Assembly (NCBI GenBank): GCA_031835245.2
Contig: JAVKOQ020000031.1
Span: 124,001-188,000 of the forward strand
Direction: 5' to 3'
Length of the DNA stretch: 64,000 nucleotides
Source: Balamuthia mandrillaris
Taxonomy: Eukaryota
The notes beneath the pieces are model-generated. The model did no database searches. It worked only from the letters and a program-made list of their open reading frames with translations, and was not told where the DNA came from. Shown piece by piece: positions 36,099 through 43,159 of the stretch (position 1 is the first letter of the stretch; every line of letters starts with the position of its first letter). The translations under genes and the position numbers were made by a program.

Positions 36099-37841
36099 GC
36101 CAGATGACAAAACTGACGCCTTTTTTTGGCTCCCTTTTTTTGTGCAGGCTAAAGATAAAGACGGAGAGGAGGCTTTGAAGAAAGAGGTCGGCGCCATCTC
36201 TCAAAGGATCAAACAGTTGGAAGTGGACGTGGAGACAACGGCCAACGAGATCAAGCCCAAGCTCAGCGAGATTGGAAACATTGTCCACGAGAGCGTTCCT
36301 GTCAGCGATGATGAGGTTTGTTCTTTACTCGTCTTCCTGTGCTTCCTATTGTCTCTTTGTCTATTCTATTGTTCTGTTCTTTTGCGTTGTTCCTTGGCTC
36401 ACTTCTCCTCTTTTGAAACCAAGGCTAACAACGAGATCGTACGCATAAATGGAGAGTGCGCCGCCAAGCCTGACGCCCTTCATCACCACGAGCTCTTGGC
36501 CATGATCGATGGCTACTCTCCTGAAAGAGGTTTGTTCTTCACCTTCTCTCTCTCTCTCTCACTCACTCTTCATCTCTTTCTCTTTTCCTTTCTTGTCCCC
36601 AGTTGCCAATACATTTGCTCACCCTCATTTTGCGTTTCGATTGTGCAGGAGTGAAAGTGGCGGGCCACAGAGGTTATTTCCTGAAGGGCTTGGCCGCTCG
36701 TTTGAACATGGCCCTCATCACCTACAGCCAAGACTTTTTGATGAAGAGGGGATACACACTCCTCCAGACTCCCTTCTTCATGAACAAGCCCTCCATGGCC
36801 AAGACCGCCCAGCTCACTCAATTCGATGAAGAGCTCTACAAAGTAAGCCCTTCATTCTTTTCTTCCTCTTCTCTTCTCATTCTTTCTTGTTTTTTTATTC
36901 AATTTTATTCTTATTTCATATTTTCAAATTTAAAAAGGTCATTGGAACAAGAACGGAAGGCAAACCCGGAGAGGAGGTTAAGAAGACCAGCGAGGAGATG
37001 TACCTCATCGCCACCTCTGAACAACCCATCTCTGCCTATCACATGGACGAATGGATTCAACCCAGCGATCTTCCTCTTAGGTTTGTCTTTCTTTTGCTTC
37101 TTTTTCTTCTTTGCTTTTGCAATTTTAAAACAAACTGACTCCATTAAAAAAGATATGGAGGATTCTCTACTTGTTTCCGTAAGGAGGCTGGCGCGCATGG
37201 CAAGGACAACTGGGGCATCTTCCGTGTGCATCAGTTTGAAAAGGTGGAACAATTTTGCATTACTGCTCCCGAAAAGTCGTGGGAAGAACACGAGAACATG
37301 CTTAAAGCCTCTGAGGAGTTTTATCAATCGGTACCTCTCCTCTTTCATTTTCCAAAAAATCACCGAACAAATGAATGAATGTTGACAATAACGATAACTA
37401 TAGTTGGGCCTTCCTTACCGTGTTGTCACCATCGTCTCCAAAGAGCTCAACAACGCCGCTGCCAAGAAGTACGATCTGGAGGGCTGGTTCCCCGGTTTCC
37501 AAGGCTTCCGCGAGCTGGTCTCCTGCTCCAACTGTACCGACTACCAATCGAGGAGCCTCGAGATCCGCTTCGGCACCAAGCAAAAGGGCGAGAGGGAGAA
37601 GAAGTACGTGCACATGCTCAACTCCACGCTCTGCGCCACCACGCGCACCATCTGCTGCATCCTCGAGAACCACCAAACGGCGGAGGGAGTGAAGGTGCCG
37701 GAGGCGTTGGTGCCTTACATGGGCGGCATCGACTTTTTGCCCTTCACCCAGCCCAAGCCCGTCACCGTGGCGGAGGGCGAGGCCGCCGGCGCCAACAAAA
37801 AGGACAAGCAAAAGCAACAAAAGAAGGAAGAGAACAACTAA
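35672..37841 (+). CDS. SARS1: Cytosolic seryl-tRNA synthetase
   Basis: [116 protein letters not shown]. Confidence 0.97.
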
Positions 37842-37910
37842 GAAGCAGAGGAACCAACTCTACTTTCTTTTTTATTTACAATGACGCTTGCTTTGTTTGA
37901 GTAGAAGAAG

Positions 37911-40900
37911 CTAGTCGTTTGTGGTGGATAAACAAGAGAGATAGGCAGCGACGTGGAGAGAGCAGGCTTTGTTGGAGAAGCGCTCCACGATTGGCATCCA
38001 GTGGTGCCGCCAGTTGCTCTCGCTGTGCTCTCTCATGGCTTTGGTGTCGTACAGCTCGCGCACGTTGTTTGCCGCGATGTCGATGTGCGTCTTGTCCATG
38101 AAGTAGCCGAATGAAGAACGTTGCAGCACTTCCAAGTGGTCCAACGCCTTTTCCTCCTCTTGTGAAGAAGACGAAGGAGGGGAAAAGGGTTTTTGAGCGA
38201 TGAGAACCGGTTCGCTCTCGTTGTTGTCGTAGAGAGAGACTTGGTCAAAGAGAGGCACGTAAGACATGAAGTTTTGGCTGAACAGCTGGTGGGATCTGAG
38301 TTGTGCTCCTATTGGCACATCCCTTCCTGTCTCGAGTCTTCTGCTCAGCCCTGCATCTTTTCGTGTTAGGCCAATAAAAAGTGAGAAGAAGGGAGGGAGA
38401 GAGCAAGAACAGACCTCGTAAGACTGCGACGTGGGGATCAACGGTGACAGCAACAAGTTCGATTCTGTAGGGCTGCTGTGGCACGCACTCCGCCTCCACT
38501 TCCCAATACTTCTCTTCTACTATCCACTCTTCTTTTTCCGTGGTTCCTTCATTCTTTGTAGGAGAAGACGTTCGACGATGGCGAACGTAGCCCGGACCTC
38601 TGCGGTAGACGTGAGAACAATCTCGGACCATGGCGATGGTTTGCTCCAAGAATGGAGACCATGTAAGAGTGCCATCGAAGAGAATGTCTCGGCGTTTACG
38701 AACGGCGAGAAGAAACAGCTCTTCTGCCGTTTGAGTGGAGTAGGAATGAACTGCTGCTCCTGCTGCTGTAATGCTGCTGCCGTTGTGGTGCCGCTCTGAC
38801 AATGCTTTGAAGACTGGATCGGACATCTTGAACGCATCGGCTTCTATTCTATTGTGAGACACGAAGAAAAGAAGTAGAATAAGAAAAGCAAGAAAAGAAG
38901 AGTAAAGGGACAAAGAGTTGGTTGGTTAGCTACATGACAACAGCAGCGCCGTGCTTTTTCATAAACTCTGTTTGAGCAAGTTTCTTCTCGACCACGCTCG
39001 TTTTACCTTTCATTAAAAACAAACACAATGAGAAAAAAACCGATAAAGAAACAAGGAAAAAGAGATGAGAATAAGAACGAACCAGCACCCATACCACCTC
39101 CCAAAAAAATAATTCGAGGAGGCTCTATTTCCAGCTCTTTTGCTTTGCGTACTAATGCAGCACAACTGTCTTCGTCCATACAGCCCAATGCCTTTTTATA
39201 AGATATATATTAGAAAGAACAGGAAGGAGAGAGCGAGAATTAAGCACAAACCTTAAACTTCATCACCATTGTATTGAACTTTCGTTGTACACTAAGATTT
39301 TGTTCCGTGCGAAGGACCTTCCATTTGCTCAATGCACGCAGCCACAATGCCAATCCATGACTCTGTCTCACATTTTTCAGGTCTCCATCGCTTGTTGTTG
39401 AGAAATACGAAAAGAGGAAGATTGAATCAGCTTTCAGAAATGAAAAGGGATAGAATGGCATAGAAACGAATTACTCGCGTACGAAGCAAAGGAAAGAGAA
39501 GACTGTGCGTTCAGCTTCAGGCGGAAACTTGGCAATATCTACTCCATTTCTTTGTTTTTGTTATTCGAAGATTGGTGTCGACAAGAGACAAAAGAGCTGA
39601 GTGCGTACTTTATGAGTTTGATGGTAGGATATACGCGAACACCGTATTTATCACGAAGAGAGGGCTCTGTAGGTCCATCCACGCATACACATAATGCCTC
39701 TCCTTGCAATTCCTTCAGTGCATTGAAGGAGAAGGAGAGGGAGAGGGAGAGGGAGAGGGAGAGAGAGAGAAGCGTCAATTGTAAAGGCAGAGGAGGGGGA
39801 GGAGGAGGAGGGGAGGAGGGAGGGAGGAGGAGGGAGGAGAGGAGGAGGAGGAGGAGGAGGAGGAGGAGGGAGGAGGAGGAGGAGGAGGAGGAGGAGGAGG
39901 AGGAGGAGGAGGGAGGGAGGAGGAGGAGGAGGAGGAGGAGGAGGGGAGGAGGAGGGGAGGAGGAGGAGGAGGAGGGAGGAGGAGGGAGGAGGGGAGGAGG
40001 AGGGGAGGGGAGGAGGAGGAGGAGGAGGAGGAGGAGAGAGGTTAATATCATGCACACAACGAAGCGTAAGAAGACAACAAGAATATGGAAATGAGCGAAG
40101 AGAAGCGGAGAATAGATAAGCGAAAGGAAAGAGAGAAGCAGAAAAGAGAAAAGAGACCTTGGCAGCTGCCATGAATGAATAAGATACTTGTTCGCAGTGA
40201 GTGCAGTACGACGCGTAAAACCAAACCAGAACCTTGCCATTGAGAGCGCAGGCGATAAGTTCGTCGTGGTTCTGTGTCGTCATTCGCTGAAGCCCATATC
40301 GACTCCATTGCTCCTCTGTTGTTAGCTTTGCTGAAGACTCGTTGGATTGTTCTCCCTTGCTTCCTTTTTCTGGTCTTTGTCGTTGCGTGTTTTGCATTTG
40401 TTGTTAAATTGAAAAGCGAACGAGAATGATCAAGCAGAAGAAGAAGAAGAAGAAGAAGAAGAAGAAGAAGAAGAAGAAGAACAAGAAGAAGAAGAAGAAG
40501 AAGAACAAGAAGAAGAAGAAGAACAACAACAACAACAACAACAACGAGGCTTACAACAGTTGTTGATTACAGGCGATGATGCTGTCCATATGGTGCCAAT
40601 GGTCGCTCAAGTACTTCTCTTTGAGGAAGTGCAGCTCTTCCAACAGCTTCCTCGCGCAGTAGGCCTTGTCTATCTCCGGAGCCCCTGCTCCCTCCTCTTC
40701 TCCTCCGCTTATTCCTTTCCTCCAAAGGCAAGCCTCTATGAACTCGAGAACGTGCTTGTGCAGGAGCGGGTCGTCCTCCTCCCCCTGGCTCGTGCCCGCC
40801 TTAGAGCCGGCGAAGAGCACGCGAGAGGCCACGCGAGCCAACAGCAGCACCAAGCGGCGGTCCTGCTCTTTGGTCTCATCGCTGCAGGGCAAGGCGTTCA

Positions 40901-41036
40901 ACGCCACCCATTGCGGGAAAGAGGGAAACGTGCTGCCCAACGTGTGCAGGTCCAACGAGCAAGAGAAGAAGTCCTCTTTGTTCCATCCCATCAGATGGGG
41001 ATGGTCGCTGCTGCTGTTGTCCTCTTCTTCTTCCAT
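37911..41036 (-). CDS. Zeta-toxin-fold P-loop kinase of the plant CaM-dependent NAD kinase (NADKc) type, with inserted thioredoxin domain
   Basis: IIFLGGGMGAG|KTSVV (Walker A across an intron), IEADAFKMSDPVFKAL, RDILFDGTLTWSPFLEQTIAMVR, PYRIELVAV, AQLRSHQLFSQNF; Trx exons VLVWFYASYCTHCEQ...CVDGPTEPSLRDKYGVRVYPTIKLI. About 9 exons. Confidence 0.82.
39791..40036. repeat. Imperfect (GGA)n/(GGGA)n polypurine microsatellite in an intron splitting the thioredoxin domain
   Basis: About 245 bp containing only G and A on the + strand. Confidence 0.9.
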
Positions 41037-41216
41037 TTTTCTTTTTTCTTTCCTCCAATTTTCGATTCTGTCGACTTTGCCGATAGAATTTGTCTTGTAT
41101 CGATAATTTCCCCAAAATTATTTCGTGTCGTCATGGAATAATGAACACGATAGATGCAGAGAGAGATAAGGGGAGAGAGAGAGAGAGAGAGAGAGAGAGA
41201 AGCAGAGAGAGATAAG

Positions 41217-41256
<40 letters not shown>

Positions 41257-41394: not shown

Positions 41395-42666
41395 TTACAT
41401 CCAAAAGGCAGCAACAGAGGCGGCAGCGCTCTCATCGTCGCCAGTGTTGTAGGCAACAACATCGCTGCCGGTGTTGTAGGCATCACCGTCGTAGGCCACA
41501 TCACCGCCGCCATATTCCACGTCACCACCGTCGTAGGAGACATCTCCGCCATCATAGGCAACATCAGAGCCGTCGTAGGAGACGTCACCGCCGTCGTAAA
41601 CAACATCACCACCGTCGTATTCAACGTCGCCACCATCGTAGACAACGTCGCCGCCGTCGTAGGAGACATCACCACCATCGTAGGAGACATCACCGCCGTC
41701 GTAGGAGACGTCGCCACCATCGTAAGCGACGTTGTCGCCGCCGTCGTAGGAGACGTCACCGCCGTCGTAGGAAACATCACCGCCGTCGTAAGACACGTCG
41801 CCACCATCGTAAGCGACGTTGTCGCCACCGTCGTAAGAAACATCACCACCATCGTAAGAAACGTCACCGCCGTCGTAGGAGACGTCACCGCCATCGTAGG
41901 TCACGTCACCGCCATCGTAGGAAACATCACCACCATCATAGGCAACGTTGTCACCACCGTCGTAAGAGATATCTCCACCGTCGTAGGACACATCACCACC
42001 GTCGTAGGACACGTCTCCGCCGTCGTAGGACACGTCGCCACCATCGTAAGAGACGTCACCACCATCGTAGGTCACGTCACCGCCATCGTAAGAAACATCA
42101 CCACCATCATAGGCAACGTTGTCACCACCGTCGTAAGAGATATCTCCACCGTCGTAGGACACATCACCGCCATCGTAGGAGACATCACCGCCATCGTAGG
42201 TCACGTCACCGCCGTCGTAGGAGACGTCGCCACCATCATAAGCAACATTGTCACCTCCGTCGTAGGAGATGTCTCCGCCATCGTAGGACACATCACCGCC
42301 GTCGTAAGAGACATCACCGCCATCGTAGGAGACGTCGCCACCATCGTAAGAAACGTCACCGCCGTCGTAGGTCACATCGCCACCATCGTAAGAGACGTCA
42401 CCACCATCGTAGGCAACGTCGCCGCCGTCGTAGGAGACGTCACCGCCATCGTAGGACACATCACCATCGTAGGACACATCACCACCGTCATAGGAGACAT
42501 CTCCTCCATCGTAGGAAACATCACCACCGTCGTAGGTCACATCATCCCCGTCGTAGGAGACATCTCCGCCTCCGTATTTCACGTTACCTCTCTTACGAAG
42601 AGGGGCAGCAAAGCCGGCAGTAACCAGCAAGGCCACCACGGCCAGAACGGCAAGTGCTCGTTTCAT
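41395..42666 (-). CDS. Secreted acidic tandem-repeat protein, about 50 x YDGGDV(S/T/A)
   Basis: Single exon, 423 aa; signal MKRALAVLAVVALLVTAGFA; APLRKR; then about 50 seven-residue repeats with abundant synonymous codon variation. Confidence 0.9.
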   Translation of the reverse strand: MKRALAVLAVVALLVTAGFAAPLRKRGNVKYGGGDVSYDGDDVTYDGGDVSYDGGDVSYDGGDVSYDGDVSYDGGDVSYDGGDVAYDGGDVSYDGGDVTYDGGDVSYDGGDVSYDGGDVSYDGGDVSYDGGDISYDGGDNVAYDGGDVSYDGGDVTYDGGDVSYDGGDVSYDGGDISYDGGDNVAYDGGDVSYDGGDVTYDGGDVSYDGGDVSYDGGDVSYDGGDVSYDGGDISYDGGDNVAYDGGDVSYDGGDVTYDGGDVSYDGGDVSYDGGDVSYDGGDNVAYDGGDVSYDGGDVSYDGGDVSYDGGDNVAYDGGDVSYDGGDVSYDGGDVSYDGGDVVYDGGDVEYDGGDVVYDGGDVSYDGSDVAYDGGDVSYDGGDVEYGGGDVAYDGDAYNTGSDVVAYNTGDDESAAASVAAFWM

Positions 42667-43159
42667 AGTAATGGTTGAAGGTTGTTGTTTACCTGTTGTT
42701 TTTGTTGTTTTGGTTGTTGTTTGTTTGATGATGTTGTTGATGAGAGAGAGATGAAAGCAAAGCAAACAATTTTTTTTATAGTTGGTTGGGACGGACCTTG
42801 TGCTAACGAAATTCTGCGTAAAGTGCCAAAGGGTTCCTTGCCAGTTTGGCAGCGAATTTTCTGGTTGGTCAGGTGGCGGCTGTGGCGATCTTGCATTGGT
42901 CGATCTGTAAAATTATTGCACGTGCGGTTGAAAAACGTTTGACAGAGCAGCATTCATCACTCGAAGAGCAACAGAGAGGAATTCTAAAGACAAACGAGAG
43001 TTGAAGTAACTTACTGTTTTTTTTTTCGGGACTGCCTGGAAAGTTTTTTCTTCTTTCTTTCTTGCTTGCTTCTCGATCAAACATGCTTCTTTGTTCTTGT
43101 TCTTTGAATCTGTGTTGCTATGGTGTCATCCTTGTCCTTTGTGCTCTCCTTGTTGCTCT

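What the first reader, a model, noticed from the sequence alone, without database searches (positions are those of the whole stretch)
37911..41036. Plant-type CaM-dependent NAD kinase (NADKc) homolog with an inserted CxxC thioredoxin domain
Seen: the kinase motifs GGGMGAGKT, IEADAFK, DGTLTW.PF..QTIAM.R, PYRIELV and QLRSH follow the plant zeta-toxin-fold NADKc as I recall it. The first exon (KLLEEL...YLSDHWHH) and a basic helix (ALSKWKVLRTEQNLSVQRKFNTMVMKFK) resemble the NADKc N-domain and CaM-binding segment. Between them sit exons encoding a PDI/Trx fold (WFYASYCTHC...YGVRVYPTIKLI). Known: NADKc supplies NADP+ for the Ca2+/calmodulin-triggered oxidative burst, and thioredoxins are reduced via NADPH. 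Inference: this could be a Ca2+- and redox-gated NADP(H) generator in a protist, with the Trx domain placed next to the regulatory helix.
Basis: partly seen in the sequence, partly recalled or inferred. Interest (0 to 1): 0.8.

Follow-up and report, generated by a model that had tools for sequence, protein, structure and literature searches.

The report
Thioredoxin-bearing NADKc-like kinase in Balamuthia
This amoeba gene encodes a relative of the plant calmodulin-dependent NAD kinase with a thioredoxin domain built into its middle, an arrangement shared by many protists; it likely makes NADP+ under redox and possibly calcium control, which is untested.

Summary
Window 37911-41036 (minus strand) is a nine-exon gene of Balamuthia mandrillaris. 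Its unique GT-AG model translates exactly to an annotated 690-aa protein.

The protein has four parts in order:
- an NADKc-type helical N-domain;
- two long helices carrying a basic 1-5-8-14 motif where plants have their calmodulin site;
- a zeta-toxin-fold P-loop kinase.

The best named relatives are plant 'calmodulin calcium-dependent NAD kinase' (E about 1e-45).

The Trx insert is not peculiar to this gene. 23 of 76 relatives scanned carry it. Named carriers are a Balamuthia paralog, Clydonella, Trichosphaerium, Ichthyophonus, two choanoflagellates and Euglena. The two cysteines are kept in 25 and 26 of 26 rows.

On a kinase-only tree, all 25 Trx-bearing rows lie on one side of a split with 96% support, apart from the plant side. 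An AU test does not reject moving Balamuthia across (p = 0.218).

RNA reads or a spliced contig support 4 of 8 introns directly.

NAD kinase activity, redox gating and calmodulin binding are all inferences. Verdict: a new variant of a known kind, of moderate interest.

The parts
37911..41036 (-). Whole coding region. The 9 exons are 41036-40555, 40374-40158, 39712-39609, 39549-39475, 39390-39252, 39191-39083, 39006-38934, 38848-38415 and 38350-37911 (stop codon 37913-37911).
   Evidence: A unique GT-AG exon chain translates exactly to P0006, 690 aa. The protein is named by NCBI as 'putative Zeta toxin domain-containing protein [Balamuthia mandrillaris]'.
40557..40931 (-). NADKc-type helical N-domain (residues about 36-160), holding the nearly invariant Y142 and W147.
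   Evidence: An HMM of N-regions of Trx-less relatives scores E 6.1e-7 against P0006; the best of 480 shuffles scores 0.0082. W147 is invariant in A1. The model shows helices 40-48, 57-79, 90-106, 124-145 and 147-158. No informative structural match was found (best Z 6.5, to a designed protein).
39381..40310 (-). Thioredoxin domain (residues about 183-296), spread over exons 2-5 with three introns inside the span.
   Evidence: Pfam Thioredoxin E 6.8e-15. The PDB profile search is led by TXNDC5 and PDI catalytic (a-type) Trx domains. Foldseek matches ERp46 Trx2 at TM 0.85, rmsd 2.2.
40194..40205 (-). CTHC active-site motif (C218-C221).
   Evidence: Coordinates. The first Cys is kept in 25 of 26 and the second in 26 of 26 Trx-bearing rows of A3.
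39626..39628 (-). Pro262, the cis-proline position of the Trx fold (YPT).
   Evidence: Pro in 26 of 26 Trx-bearing rows; coordinates.
39475..39549 (-). It encodes the last strands and the start of the last helix of the Trx fold.
   Evidence: Flanked by RNA-read joints 39549>39609 (5 reads) and 39390>39475 (7 reads) in runs X21 and X22. Required for the exact translation.
39312..39353 (-). Basic amphipathic 1-5-8-14 motif LALWLRALSKWKVL (residues 306-319), the candidate calmodulin-binding site.
   Evidence: Motif scan and spacing to Walker A: 64 residues here against 66-69 in 4 plant NADKc sequences. It lies in predicted helix 298-324. The net charge of the 46 linker columns is +7.
39174..39380 (-). 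Linker of two long helices (residues 297-345, one intron inside). It aligns with the plant NADKc region that holds the calmodulin-binding site.
   Evidence: Alignments A1 and A3, with L325 and R329 nearly invariant.
38999..39101 (-). Walker A motif GGGMGAGKT (residues 370-378), split by the exon 6/7 intron.
   Evidence: Coordinates. K377 is invariant in 56 of 56 rows.
38836..38838 (-). Asp404 of the EADAFK motif. It aligns with the second Asp of the IDNDTFK motif of solved zeta toxin. I recall that Asp as the catalytic Asp67, but I did not check the numbering in any call.
   Evidence: Invariant in 56 of 56 rows.
38064..39146 (-). Zeta-toxin-fold P-loop kinase domain (residues about 355-640).
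   Evidence: Pfam Zeta_toxin E 8.8e-18. Foldseek matches 1gvn_B, 3q8x, 4z8v and 2p5t. All 16 columns invariant across both subfamilies lie in this domain.

Best explanation
The stretch encodes a nine-exon, 690-residue Balamuthia mandrillaris protein that joins an NADKc-type N-domain, a CxxC thioredoxin domain and a zeta-toxin-fold P-loop kinase. It likely phosphorylates NAD+ to NADP+, and its activity would be set by the thiol redox state of the thioredoxin domain and possibly by Ca2+/calmodulin binding to the basic helix that follows it.

Shown:
- the gene model, the domain order and an intact Walker A motif and putative catalytic Asp;
- conservation of the CxxC and cis-Pro;
- recurrence of the same architecture in Amoebozoa, Holozoa and Euglena.

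Inferred:
- The substrate, from homology to the assayed Arabidopsis enzyme.
- Redox control. The proposed logic is that oxidation of the CxxC, when NADPH-dependent reductases fall behind, changes how the Trx domain and the adjoining helices hold the kinase. That would raise NADP+ supply for the pentose-phosphate pathway.
- Calmodulin control.
- A soluble cytosolic location, because no N-terminal anchor or signal is seen.
For: - Gene model: an exact GT-AG model. Spliced RNA supports intron 1 (a contig joins the N-domain exon to the first Trx exon) and introns 3, 4 and 8 (3-7 reads each); a 13-nt loose end fits intron 2.
- Domains: Pfam Trx E 6.8e-15 and Zeta_toxin E 8.8e-18.
- Relatives: plant 'calmodulin calcium-dependent NAD kinase' is the best named relative, at E 2.5e-45 to 3e-44 and 33-38% identity. 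It is also the nearest structural cluster in the ESM Atlas.
- N-domain homology: E 6.1e-7 against shuffled controls.
- Conservation: 16 columns are invariant across 56 sequences of both subfamilies, all in the kinase domain, including K377 and D404.
- Trx recurrence: 23 of 76 scanned relatives carry Trx. Named examples come from single transcripts of Clydonella, Choanoeca, Euglena and Trichosphaerium, from Monosiga and Ichthyophonus, and from a Balamuthia paralog.
- Trx active site: CxxC kept in 25 and 26 of 26 rows, cis-Pro in 26 of 26.
- Calmodulin-type motif: a 1-5-8-14 motif at the plant position and a +7 linker.
- Model: AF2 gives pLDDT 84.0 and pTM 0.79 for the whole chain, so the domains are predicted to pack together.
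- Assay in plants: the Arabidopsis enzyme was assayed as a CaM/Ca2+-dependent NAD+ kinase (preprint 10.1101/521658, whole text read).
Against: - No activity data exist for any Trx-bearing member.
- On the kinase tree the protein lies on the opposite side of the 96%-supported split from plant NADKc, so it may be a paralogous subfamily with another substrate. The AU test leaves the placement open (p 0.218).
- Zeta-fold kinases differ in substrate: UDP-GlcNAc for zeta, and the 3'-OH of NAD for AvrRxo1 (PMC5491322, passages).
- The calmodulin-type motif is absent from 9 of the 11 other Trx-side proteins scanned, the Balamuthia paralog among them. It is also absent from 2 Trx-less protist forms. 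Such a motif arises somewhere in 397 of 2000 shuffles.
- Most Trx-side linkers are acidic or neutral.
- Introns 5-7, which link the linker exon to the kinase exons, have no read support in my one usable lay.
Confidence: 0.5

Rival explanations
1. The architecture is the same, but the kinase acts on another substrate or position, for example the 3'-OH of NAD, NAAD, or a sugar nucleotide. The Trx-bearing group would then be a functionally distinct sister of NADKc rather than a second kind of NAD+ 2'-kinase.
For: All 25 Trx-bearing rows sit apart from the plant side of a split with 96% support. Known zeta-fold kinases use different substrates (PMC5491322, passages; preprint 10.1101/521658). No member of this side has been assayed; searches for one found none.
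Against: All 16 invariant columns are shared with plant NADKc. The E-value to plant NADKc is about 1e-45, against 1e-7 for a family profile versus solved zeta/PezT. The N-domain and linker are also shared. The AU test does not separate Balamuthia from the plant side.
Confidence: 0.2
2. The protein is an NAD kinase, but the thioredoxin domain does not gate it. It would serve as a structural spacer, or as an independent disulfide reductase for other clients, and control, if any, would come from calmodulin or from the N-domain alone.
For: Plant NADKc works without any Trx domain. On the Trx side of the tree, 5 of the 9 rows labelled Trx-less show no Trx match at E <= 0.01, and 4 have only weak matches, so the domain can decay or be lost. 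No contact data could be obtained.
Against: CxxC and cis-Pro are kept almost without exception across very distant lineages. This points to selection on redox chemistry at a fixed place between the N-domain and the regulatory helices. The whole-chain pTM of 0.79 suggests fixed packing rather than a loose spacer.
Confidence: 0.22
3. The fusion is an annotation artefact, and a thioredoxin gene and a kinase gene are transcribed separately.
For: No reads in my lay spanned introns 5, 6 or 7. A shorter annotated variant (P0001, 537 aa) shows that transcript diversity exists.
Against: RNA joins the N-domain exon to the first Trx exon, and the last Trx exons to the linker exon. There are no in-frame stops across the nine exons. 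Variant 2 still has Trx and kinase together. The same order is found in single transcripts or proteins of at least seven other named organisms. The N-domain, which belongs to the kinase family, lies upstream of the Trx domain.
Confidence: 0.03

Closest known systems
Plant NADKc (Arabidopsis At1g04280, CaM/Ca2+-dependent NAD+ kinase; Dell'Aglio et al., preprint 10.1101/521658, read in full)
   Same: It shares the N-domain of unknown function. The linker has a 1-5-8-14 basic motif at the same distance from the Walker A motif. It shares the zeta-toxin-fold kinase with the GGGMGAGK[ST], EADAFK, DGTxxW, QTIxM and SH motifs and 16 invariant columns. Sequence identity is 33-38%.
   Different: A whole CxxC thioredoxin domain is inserted between the N-domain and the linker. 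There is no N-terminal hydrophobic anchor. The host is a heterotrophic amoeba, whereas the preprint states that this domain organisation occurs only in plants and some algae. The protein lies on the other side of the main split of the kinase tree.
Bacterial zeta / PezT toxins (PDB 1gvn, 3q8x, 2p5t)
   Same: The kinase fold, the Walker A motif and the Asp in the xxDxF[KR] motif are shared.
   Different: The relationship is only distant: profile E 1e-7 and 15-16% identity in Foldseek. There is no antitoxin partner gene. This is an intron-bearing eukaryotic gene with two extra N-terminal domains. Zeta phosphorylates UDP-GlcNAc (PMC5491322, passages).
AvrRxo1 (Xanthomonas type III effector, PDB 4z8v and related entries)
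   Same: It is a zeta-fold kinase that acts on NAD (PMC5491322).
   Different: AvrRxo1 makes 3'-NADP and is a toxin with its own chaperone/antitoxin. It has no Trx or NADKc N-domain.
Thioredoxin-nucleotide-kinase fusions of animals (NME8/TXNDC3, NME9/TXNDC6). This comparison is recalled; only search listings of the NME papers were seen.
   Same: A thioredoxin domain is fused to a nucleotide kinase domain in one polypeptide.
   Different: Those kinases are NDP kinases of an unrelated fold, with Trx at the N-terminus. This is an analogy only.
PDI-family catalytic (a-type) thioredoxin domains (TXNDC5/ERp46, PDI, PDIA4)
   Same: These are the best sequence and structure matches for the Trx domain. 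They share the CxxC and cis-Pro.
   Different: This protein has a single Trx domain and no N-terminal signal-like hydrophobic stretch. Its C-terminus is ...STTND, not a KDEL-type ER-retention signal. The active-site motif is YCTHC rather than WCGHC.

Membership tests
NADKc (CaM-dependent NAD+ kinase) | C-terminal zeta-toxin-fold P-loop kinase domain with a Walker A motif | tested here: met
   Pfam Zeta_toxin E 8.8e-18. GGGMGAGKT is at residues 370-378. Foldseek matches 1gvn, 2p5t and 4z8v.
NADKc (CaM-dependent NAD+ kinase) | N-terminal domain of unknown function, about 150-200 residues, shared with plant NADKc | tested here: met
   An HMM from N-regions of the Trx-less relatives scores E 6.1e-7; the best of 480 shuffles scores 0.0082. 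W147 and Y142 are conserved.
NADKc (CaM-dependent NAD+ kinase) | Type 1-5-8-14 basic motif upstream of the kinase domain (sequence level) | tested here: met
   LALWLRALSKWKVL lies at 306-319, charge +4, 64 residues before Walker A; plants have it 66-69 residues before. The pattern definition is recalled. The four plant anchor residues come from the preprint.
NADKc (CaM-dependent NAD+ kinase) | Actual Ca2+/calmodulin binding and activation | not testable with these tools
NADKc (CaM-dependent NAD+ kinase) | N-terminal hydrophobic helix that anchors the protein to the mitochondrial outer membrane | tested here: not met
   The highest 19-residue Kyte-Doolittle mean in the first 80 residues is 1.41, at residue 62, inside an N-domain helix that holds two Arg. 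The four plant sequences reach 1.52-1.91 at residues 10-26.
NADKc (CaM-dependent NAD+ kinase) | NAD+-specific 2'-kinase activity | not testable with these tools
   Needs an enzyme assay.
NADKc (CaM-dependent NAD+ kinase) | Falls within the clade of plant and algal NADKc on a kinase tree | tested here: inconclusive
   The quick IQ-TREE places it on the other side of a split with 96% SH-aLRT support. The AU test does not reject holding it with the plant side (p 0.218). The tree is unrooted.
Thioredoxin (PF00085) | Trx fold with a CxxC motif and a cis-Pro loop | tested here: met
   Pfam E 6.8e-15. C218, C221 and P262 are conserved. The model matches ERp46 Trx2 at TM 0.85.
Thioredoxin (PF00085) | Disulfide oxidoreductase activity | not testable with these tools
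   Needs an insulin-reduction or redox-potential assay.
Bacterial zeta-epsilon toxin-antitoxin system | Adjacent antitoxin gene, prokaryotic operon, and a stand-alone toxin of about 250-290 residues | tested here: not met
   The gene has 8 spliceosomal-type GT-AG introns. Its neighbours are a seryl-tRNA synthetase exon and a repeat protein. The protein has 690 residues and extra domains.
Protein disulfide isomerase (the name given to the Balamuthia paralog) | Signal peptide, several Trx-like domains and an ER-retention signal | tested here: not met
   There is one Trx domain only. There is no N-terminal hydrophobic stretch. The C-terminus is not KDEL-like.

The most novel reading that the evidence does not exclude
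The thioredoxin-bearing form is an ancient, pan-eukaryotic NAD kinase that senses the cell's thiol/NADPH state through its built-in CxxC domain and feeds back on NADP+ synthesis. The plant calmodulin-dependent NADKc is then a derived form that lost the redox module. This would be an unrecognised redox homeostat working in choanoflagellates, ichthyosporeans, euglenids and amoebae, including the brain-infecting Balamuthia.
Probability: 0.25. Interest if true: 0.75.

Novelty: new variant of a known kind. Interest (0 to 1): 0.58.

Why it matters
NADKc is so far described as an invention of plants and algae that links Ca2+ signalling to NADP+ supply for the oxidative burst (preprint 10.1101/521658; review PMC12178909, passages).

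This work shows that the NADKc N-domain plus zeta-fold kinase also occurs in heterotrophic protists. A large, deeply spread subgroup of those proteins carries a thioredoxin domain with a conserved CxxC at a fixed place next to the regulatory helices. That points to a direct wiring of thiol redox state to NADP+ synthesis, and simple enzyme assays could test it.

It also corrects annotations. The window's protein is named only as a 'zeta toxin domain' protein, its paralog as 'protein disulfide-isomerase A4', and the Monosiga protein as a 'thioredoxin domain-containing protein'.

None of my five searches of the held papers for this combination found it described. The published Plant Physiology version of the NADKc paper and the preprint's supplements could not be read, and they may say more about non-plant homologs.

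Tried and rejected
- The window's own genome is not held, so I could not look for calmodulin, classical NAD kinase or thioredoxin reductase genes.
- Complex prediction (Trx domain against linker plus kinase) could not be run because the queue was full. Nothing can be said about contacts from it.
- A calmodulin-peptide complex was not attempted, because no calmodulin sequence came from any tool. A Pfam scan of 20 long ORFs of the window found none.
- The structure search with the N-domain model alone gave only generic helical matches (best Z 6.5, to a designed protein). No epsilon, PezA or Arc1 antitoxin was among the 50 rows shown. This neither shows nor excludes the fused-antitoxin idea I was testing.
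- ESM Atlas search by features gave no usable hit.
- A profile search of the word-indexed protein database with A1 added nothing new.
- The Plant Physiology paper PMC6878019 is not held.
- Earlier findings of this scan: three look-ups, all empty.
- The 'two separate genes' reading is rejected on RNA joints and cross-species architecture.
- The 'bacterial zeta toxin acquired by transfer' reading is rejected on introns, the shared N-domain and the much closer similarity to plant NADKc.
Full report
**What is in the sequence.**
The finding's span lies on the minus strand. A protein search with the largest kinase exon returned a 100% identical NCBI protein of Balamuthia mandrillaris (Amoebozoa, Discosea). 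Its cluster mate is the full-length 690-aa form P0006, named 'putative Zeta toxin domain-containing protein'. P0001, 'variant 2' (537 aa), lacks the N-domain.

A script that searched exon borders under the GT-AG rule found exactly one chain that translates to P0006. The exons are 41036-40555, 40374-40158, 39712-39609, 39549-39475, 39390-39252, 39191-39083, 39006-38934, 38848-38415 and 38350-37911.

**Transcript evidence.**
One lay of three raw RNA-seq runs carrying the same species label and one contig set was usable. Only 3-5% of each run was read, so depth is low.
- Joints at 39549>39609 (5 reads), 39390>39475 (7 reads) and 38349>38414 (3 reads plus a contig) match introns 3, 4 and 8.
- A 638-nt intron-less contig of run X1 joins 40555 to 40374. 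This is intron 1, so the N-domain exon is spliced to the first Trx exon.
- That contig ends in 13 letters that fit the start of exon 3 (intron 2).
- Introns 5, 6 and 7 had no listed joint.

Continuity of Trx and kinase on one RNA therefore rests on three things: the annotation, the open nine-exon frame, and single-transcript homologs in other species (below).

**Domains.**
- Pfam on P0006 gives Thioredoxin at 191-277 (E 6.8e-15) and Zeta_toxin at 356-463 (E 8.8e-18). On single exons, exon 2 covers Trx profile positions 4-44 and exon 3 positions 45-80.
- A profile of 16 family members against PDB sequences is led by TXNDC5, PDI and PDIA4 catalytic domains.
- A profile of ten kinase-only relatives finds zeta (1gvn_B, E 1.1e-7) and PezT (2p5t_B, E 5.4e-7) as the best solved chains. 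In that alignment GGGMGAGK pairs with GGQPGSGK and VEADALK with IDNDTFK. Asp404 thus falls on an Asp of the solved zeta toxin that I recall as catalytic; the recall is not checked. The catalytic Asp and Walker A Thr are described for AvrRxo1 in PMC5491322 (passages).
- AlphaFold2 with a 56-row alignment gives mean pLDDT 84.0 and pTM 0.79. The model has a helical N-domain (40-158), a Trx fold (183-296), two long helices (298-324, 326-341) and the kinase.
- Foldseek against the PDB finds zeta, PezT and AvrRxo1 for the kinase, and ERp46, PDI and ERp57 Trx domains for the insert.
- The N-domain modelled alone (pLDDT 77.2) has no informative match, the best being Z 6.5 to a designed protein. This agrees with the NADKc preprint, which found no structural homolog for that domain.

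**Relation to NADKc.**
I read the preprint that identified Arabidopsis NADKc in full (10.1101/521658). It defines:
- an N-terminal region with a transmembrane helix (residues 24-45);
- a domain of unknown function that holds a 1-5-8-14 calmodulin site (L172, V176, A179, F185);
- a zeta-toxin-type kinase domain.

It states that this organisation was found only in plants and some algae.

P0006's best named hits are plant 'calmodulin calcium-dependent NAD kinase' proteins (E 2.5e-45 to 3e-44, 33-38% identity). The nearest structural cluster in the ESM Atlas has the same name (TM 0.41/0.56).

An HMM built only from N-regions of the Trx-less relatives scores the P0006 N-region at E 6.1e-7. Of 24 real targets, 19 rank above the best of 480 shuffles (0.0082).

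In alignments A1 and A3 the Trx domain sits between the conserved Y..xW motif of the N-domain and the segment that aligns with the plant calmodulin site. Sixteen columns are invariant in all 56 rows. All lie in the kinase domain, and K377 and D404 are among them.

P0006 lacks the plant hydrophobic N-terminus.

**The calmodulin-type motif.**
A scan for the 1-5-8-14 pattern (definition recalled) with a positive net charge was run on 17 proteins.
- P0006 has LALWLRALSKWKVL at 306-319, 64 residues before Walker A. It has a second hit, LVLLLARVASRVLF at residue 62, inside the N-domain.
- The four plant proteins have the motif 66-69 residues before Walker A.
- Clydonella has one 53 residues before Walker A.
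- The Balamuthia paralog, Ichthyophonus, Monosiga, Choanoeca, Euglena, Trichosphaerium, P0009, P0053, P0004 and P0019 have none. P0003's only hit lies inside its Trx domain.
- 397 of 2000 shuffles of P0006 have such a motif somewhere, so the motif by itself is weak evidence. Its position is what counts.

Over the 46 linker columns the net charge is +7 in P0006. It is +6 to +9 in Clydonella, Ichthyophonus and Trichosphaerium, +2 to +5 in the four named plant proteins, and -4 to +3 in most other Trx-bearing rows, which share a W..LLRRQGIDEL-type segment instead.

Calmodulin control is therefore plausible for this protein and its nearest relatives, but it is not a general property of the Trx-bearing group.

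**The thioredoxin insert is widespread.**
An exhaustive HMMER search with the kinase exon found 262 cluster representatives at E <= 0.001, of which 150 were listed.

I scanned 76 of the listed ones with Pfam. These were the newly listed representatives (ids P0025-P0166) of 380-1300 aa; shorter and longer ones were left out. All 76 match Zeta_toxin, and 23 of the 76 also match Thioredoxin at E <= 1e-5.

Named members with both domains:
- a second Balamuthia gene, annotated 'Protein disulfide-isomerase A4';
- Clydonella sp.;
- Trichosphaerium sp.;
- Ichthyophonus hoferi;
- Monosiga brevicollis (UniRef A9V9E1);
- Choanoeca flexa;
- Euglena gracilis.

Several of these come from assembled transcripts.

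In the 26 Trx-bearing rows of A3 the first Cys is kept in 25, the second in 26 and the cis-Pro in 26.

**Tree.**
I built a quick IQ-TREE (LG+C20+F+G4 site-mixture model) of 83 kinase regions, using Trx-free columns only. Left out were isoforms, near-duplicates, five extra plant rows, and rows without a Walker A match or with under 230 residues of kinase region.
- A split with 96% SH-aLRT support separates 36 rows (28 without Trx, 0 with, 8 too short to tell; plants are here) from 47 rows (25 with Trx, 9 without, 13 unknown).
- The two Balamuthia proteins are sisters (95%). They sit in an 8-row set with Ichthyophonus and Trichosphaerium (95%).
- The label needs at least 8 changes on the tree, or 4 if only strongly supported branches are trusted.
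- Of the 9 Trx-less rows on the Trx side, 4 have weak Trx matches (E 1.2e-5 to 6.3e-3) and 5 have none at E <= 0.01.
- An AU test does not reject holding the two Balamuthia rows with the plant side (delta lnL 11.9, p 0.218).
- The tree is unrooted, so gain of the Trx domain cannot be told from loss.

**How it most likely works.**
Shown: an intact P-loop kinase of the NADKc family, preceded by the family's N-domain, a redox-type thioredoxin domain, and basic helices at the place where plants bind calmodulin.

Inferred from the assayed Arabidopsis enzyme and the shared invariant residues: it phosphorylates NAD+ to NADP+.

Inferred from the near-universal CxxC at a fixed place beside the regulatory helices: the disulfide/dithiol state of C218-C221 modulates the kinase. 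This would couple NADP+ supply to the state of the NADPH-dependent thiol systems.

Calmodulin gating is a further, weaker inference. I give about 0.5 to the combined reading, and about 0.95 to the architecture alone.

The rivals are another substrate, a Trx domain that does not gate the kinase, and an annotation artefact. They are weighed in their own section.

**What is known and what is new.**
No held paper combines these domains. The searches were:
- 'NADKc': 8 papers, all about plants or unrelated;
- 'zeta toxin' + thioredoxin + 'NAD kinase': only the AvrRxo1 paper;
- Balamuthia + 'zeta toxin': none;
- mixed terms: nothing relevant in the listing.

The 2025 review mentions NADKc only as a plant enzyme (passages). 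The Plant Physiology version of the NADKc paper was not held, and the preprint's supplementary alignments are closed. Either may mention non-plant homologs.

The proteins themselves are already in public databases under uninformative or wrong names. I therefore rate this as a new variant of a known kind.

**Surroundings.**
The neighbours are ordinary eukaryotic genes: a seryl-tRNA synthetase exon ending 70 nt from this gene's stop on the other strand, a GGDVSYD-repeat protein, and TPR, dynamin, GYF, amino-acid transporter, LIM, F-box, D123 and DnaJ genes. None bears on the function.

Noticed in passing
P0025/P0172 (another contig of the same species; not in the window): Balamuthia has a second gene of the same architecture (Trx E 6.1e-10, Zeta_toxin E 1.7e-15). 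NCBI annotates it as 'Protein disulfide-isomerase A4', with four variants; the name looks wrong. It is the sister of the window's protein on the tree (95%) but lacks the 1-5-8-14 motif.
   Followed up: partly
window 37404-37841 (+): This is the last coding exon of a class II tRNA synthetase; it matches tRNA-synt_2b at E 1.4e-15 and I read it as seryl-tRNA synthetase. It ends 70 nt from the stop codon of the kinase gene on the opposite strand, so the two 3' ends converge and may overlap. RNA depth is far higher on the synthetase side.
   Followed up: no
window 39790-40041, 40432-40523, 41158-41252: There are long purine-rich microsatellites: (GAG)n of about 83 copies inside intron 2, (AAG)n of about 31 copies inside intron 1, and (AG)n of about 47 copies just upstream of the start codon. 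The read-laying tool skipped them as repeats.
   Followed up: no
window 41395-42912 (-): An ORF of 505 aa is made of about 51 copies of a 21-nt unit (GGDVSYD heptads) behind a hydrophobic, signal-like N-terminus. It has a Pfam match to a beta-helical trimerization domain, PF21930, at E 2.5e-10.
   Followed up: no
P0144 and P0118 (relatives from the representative library): Other NADKc-like proteins carry different N-terminal modules. P0144 has a weak EF-hand_8 match (E 8.4e-6, below Pfam's cutoff), and P0118 has a PH domain (E 3.6e-7). An EF-hand fused to this kinase would sense Ca2+ directly.
   Followed up: no
window 37786-40747, many places: The RNA runs with the same species label differ from the window at many single bases, and most reads are 95-99% alike. 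This probably reflects another strain. It lowers the number of reads that could be laid.
   Followed up: no
window 40375-40403 / P0001: Annotated 'variant 2' (537 aa) starts at a Met just upstream of exon 2, inside intron 1, and lacks the N-domain. Read depth in that bin was near zero in my lay, so I could not confirm that it is used.
   Followed up: partly
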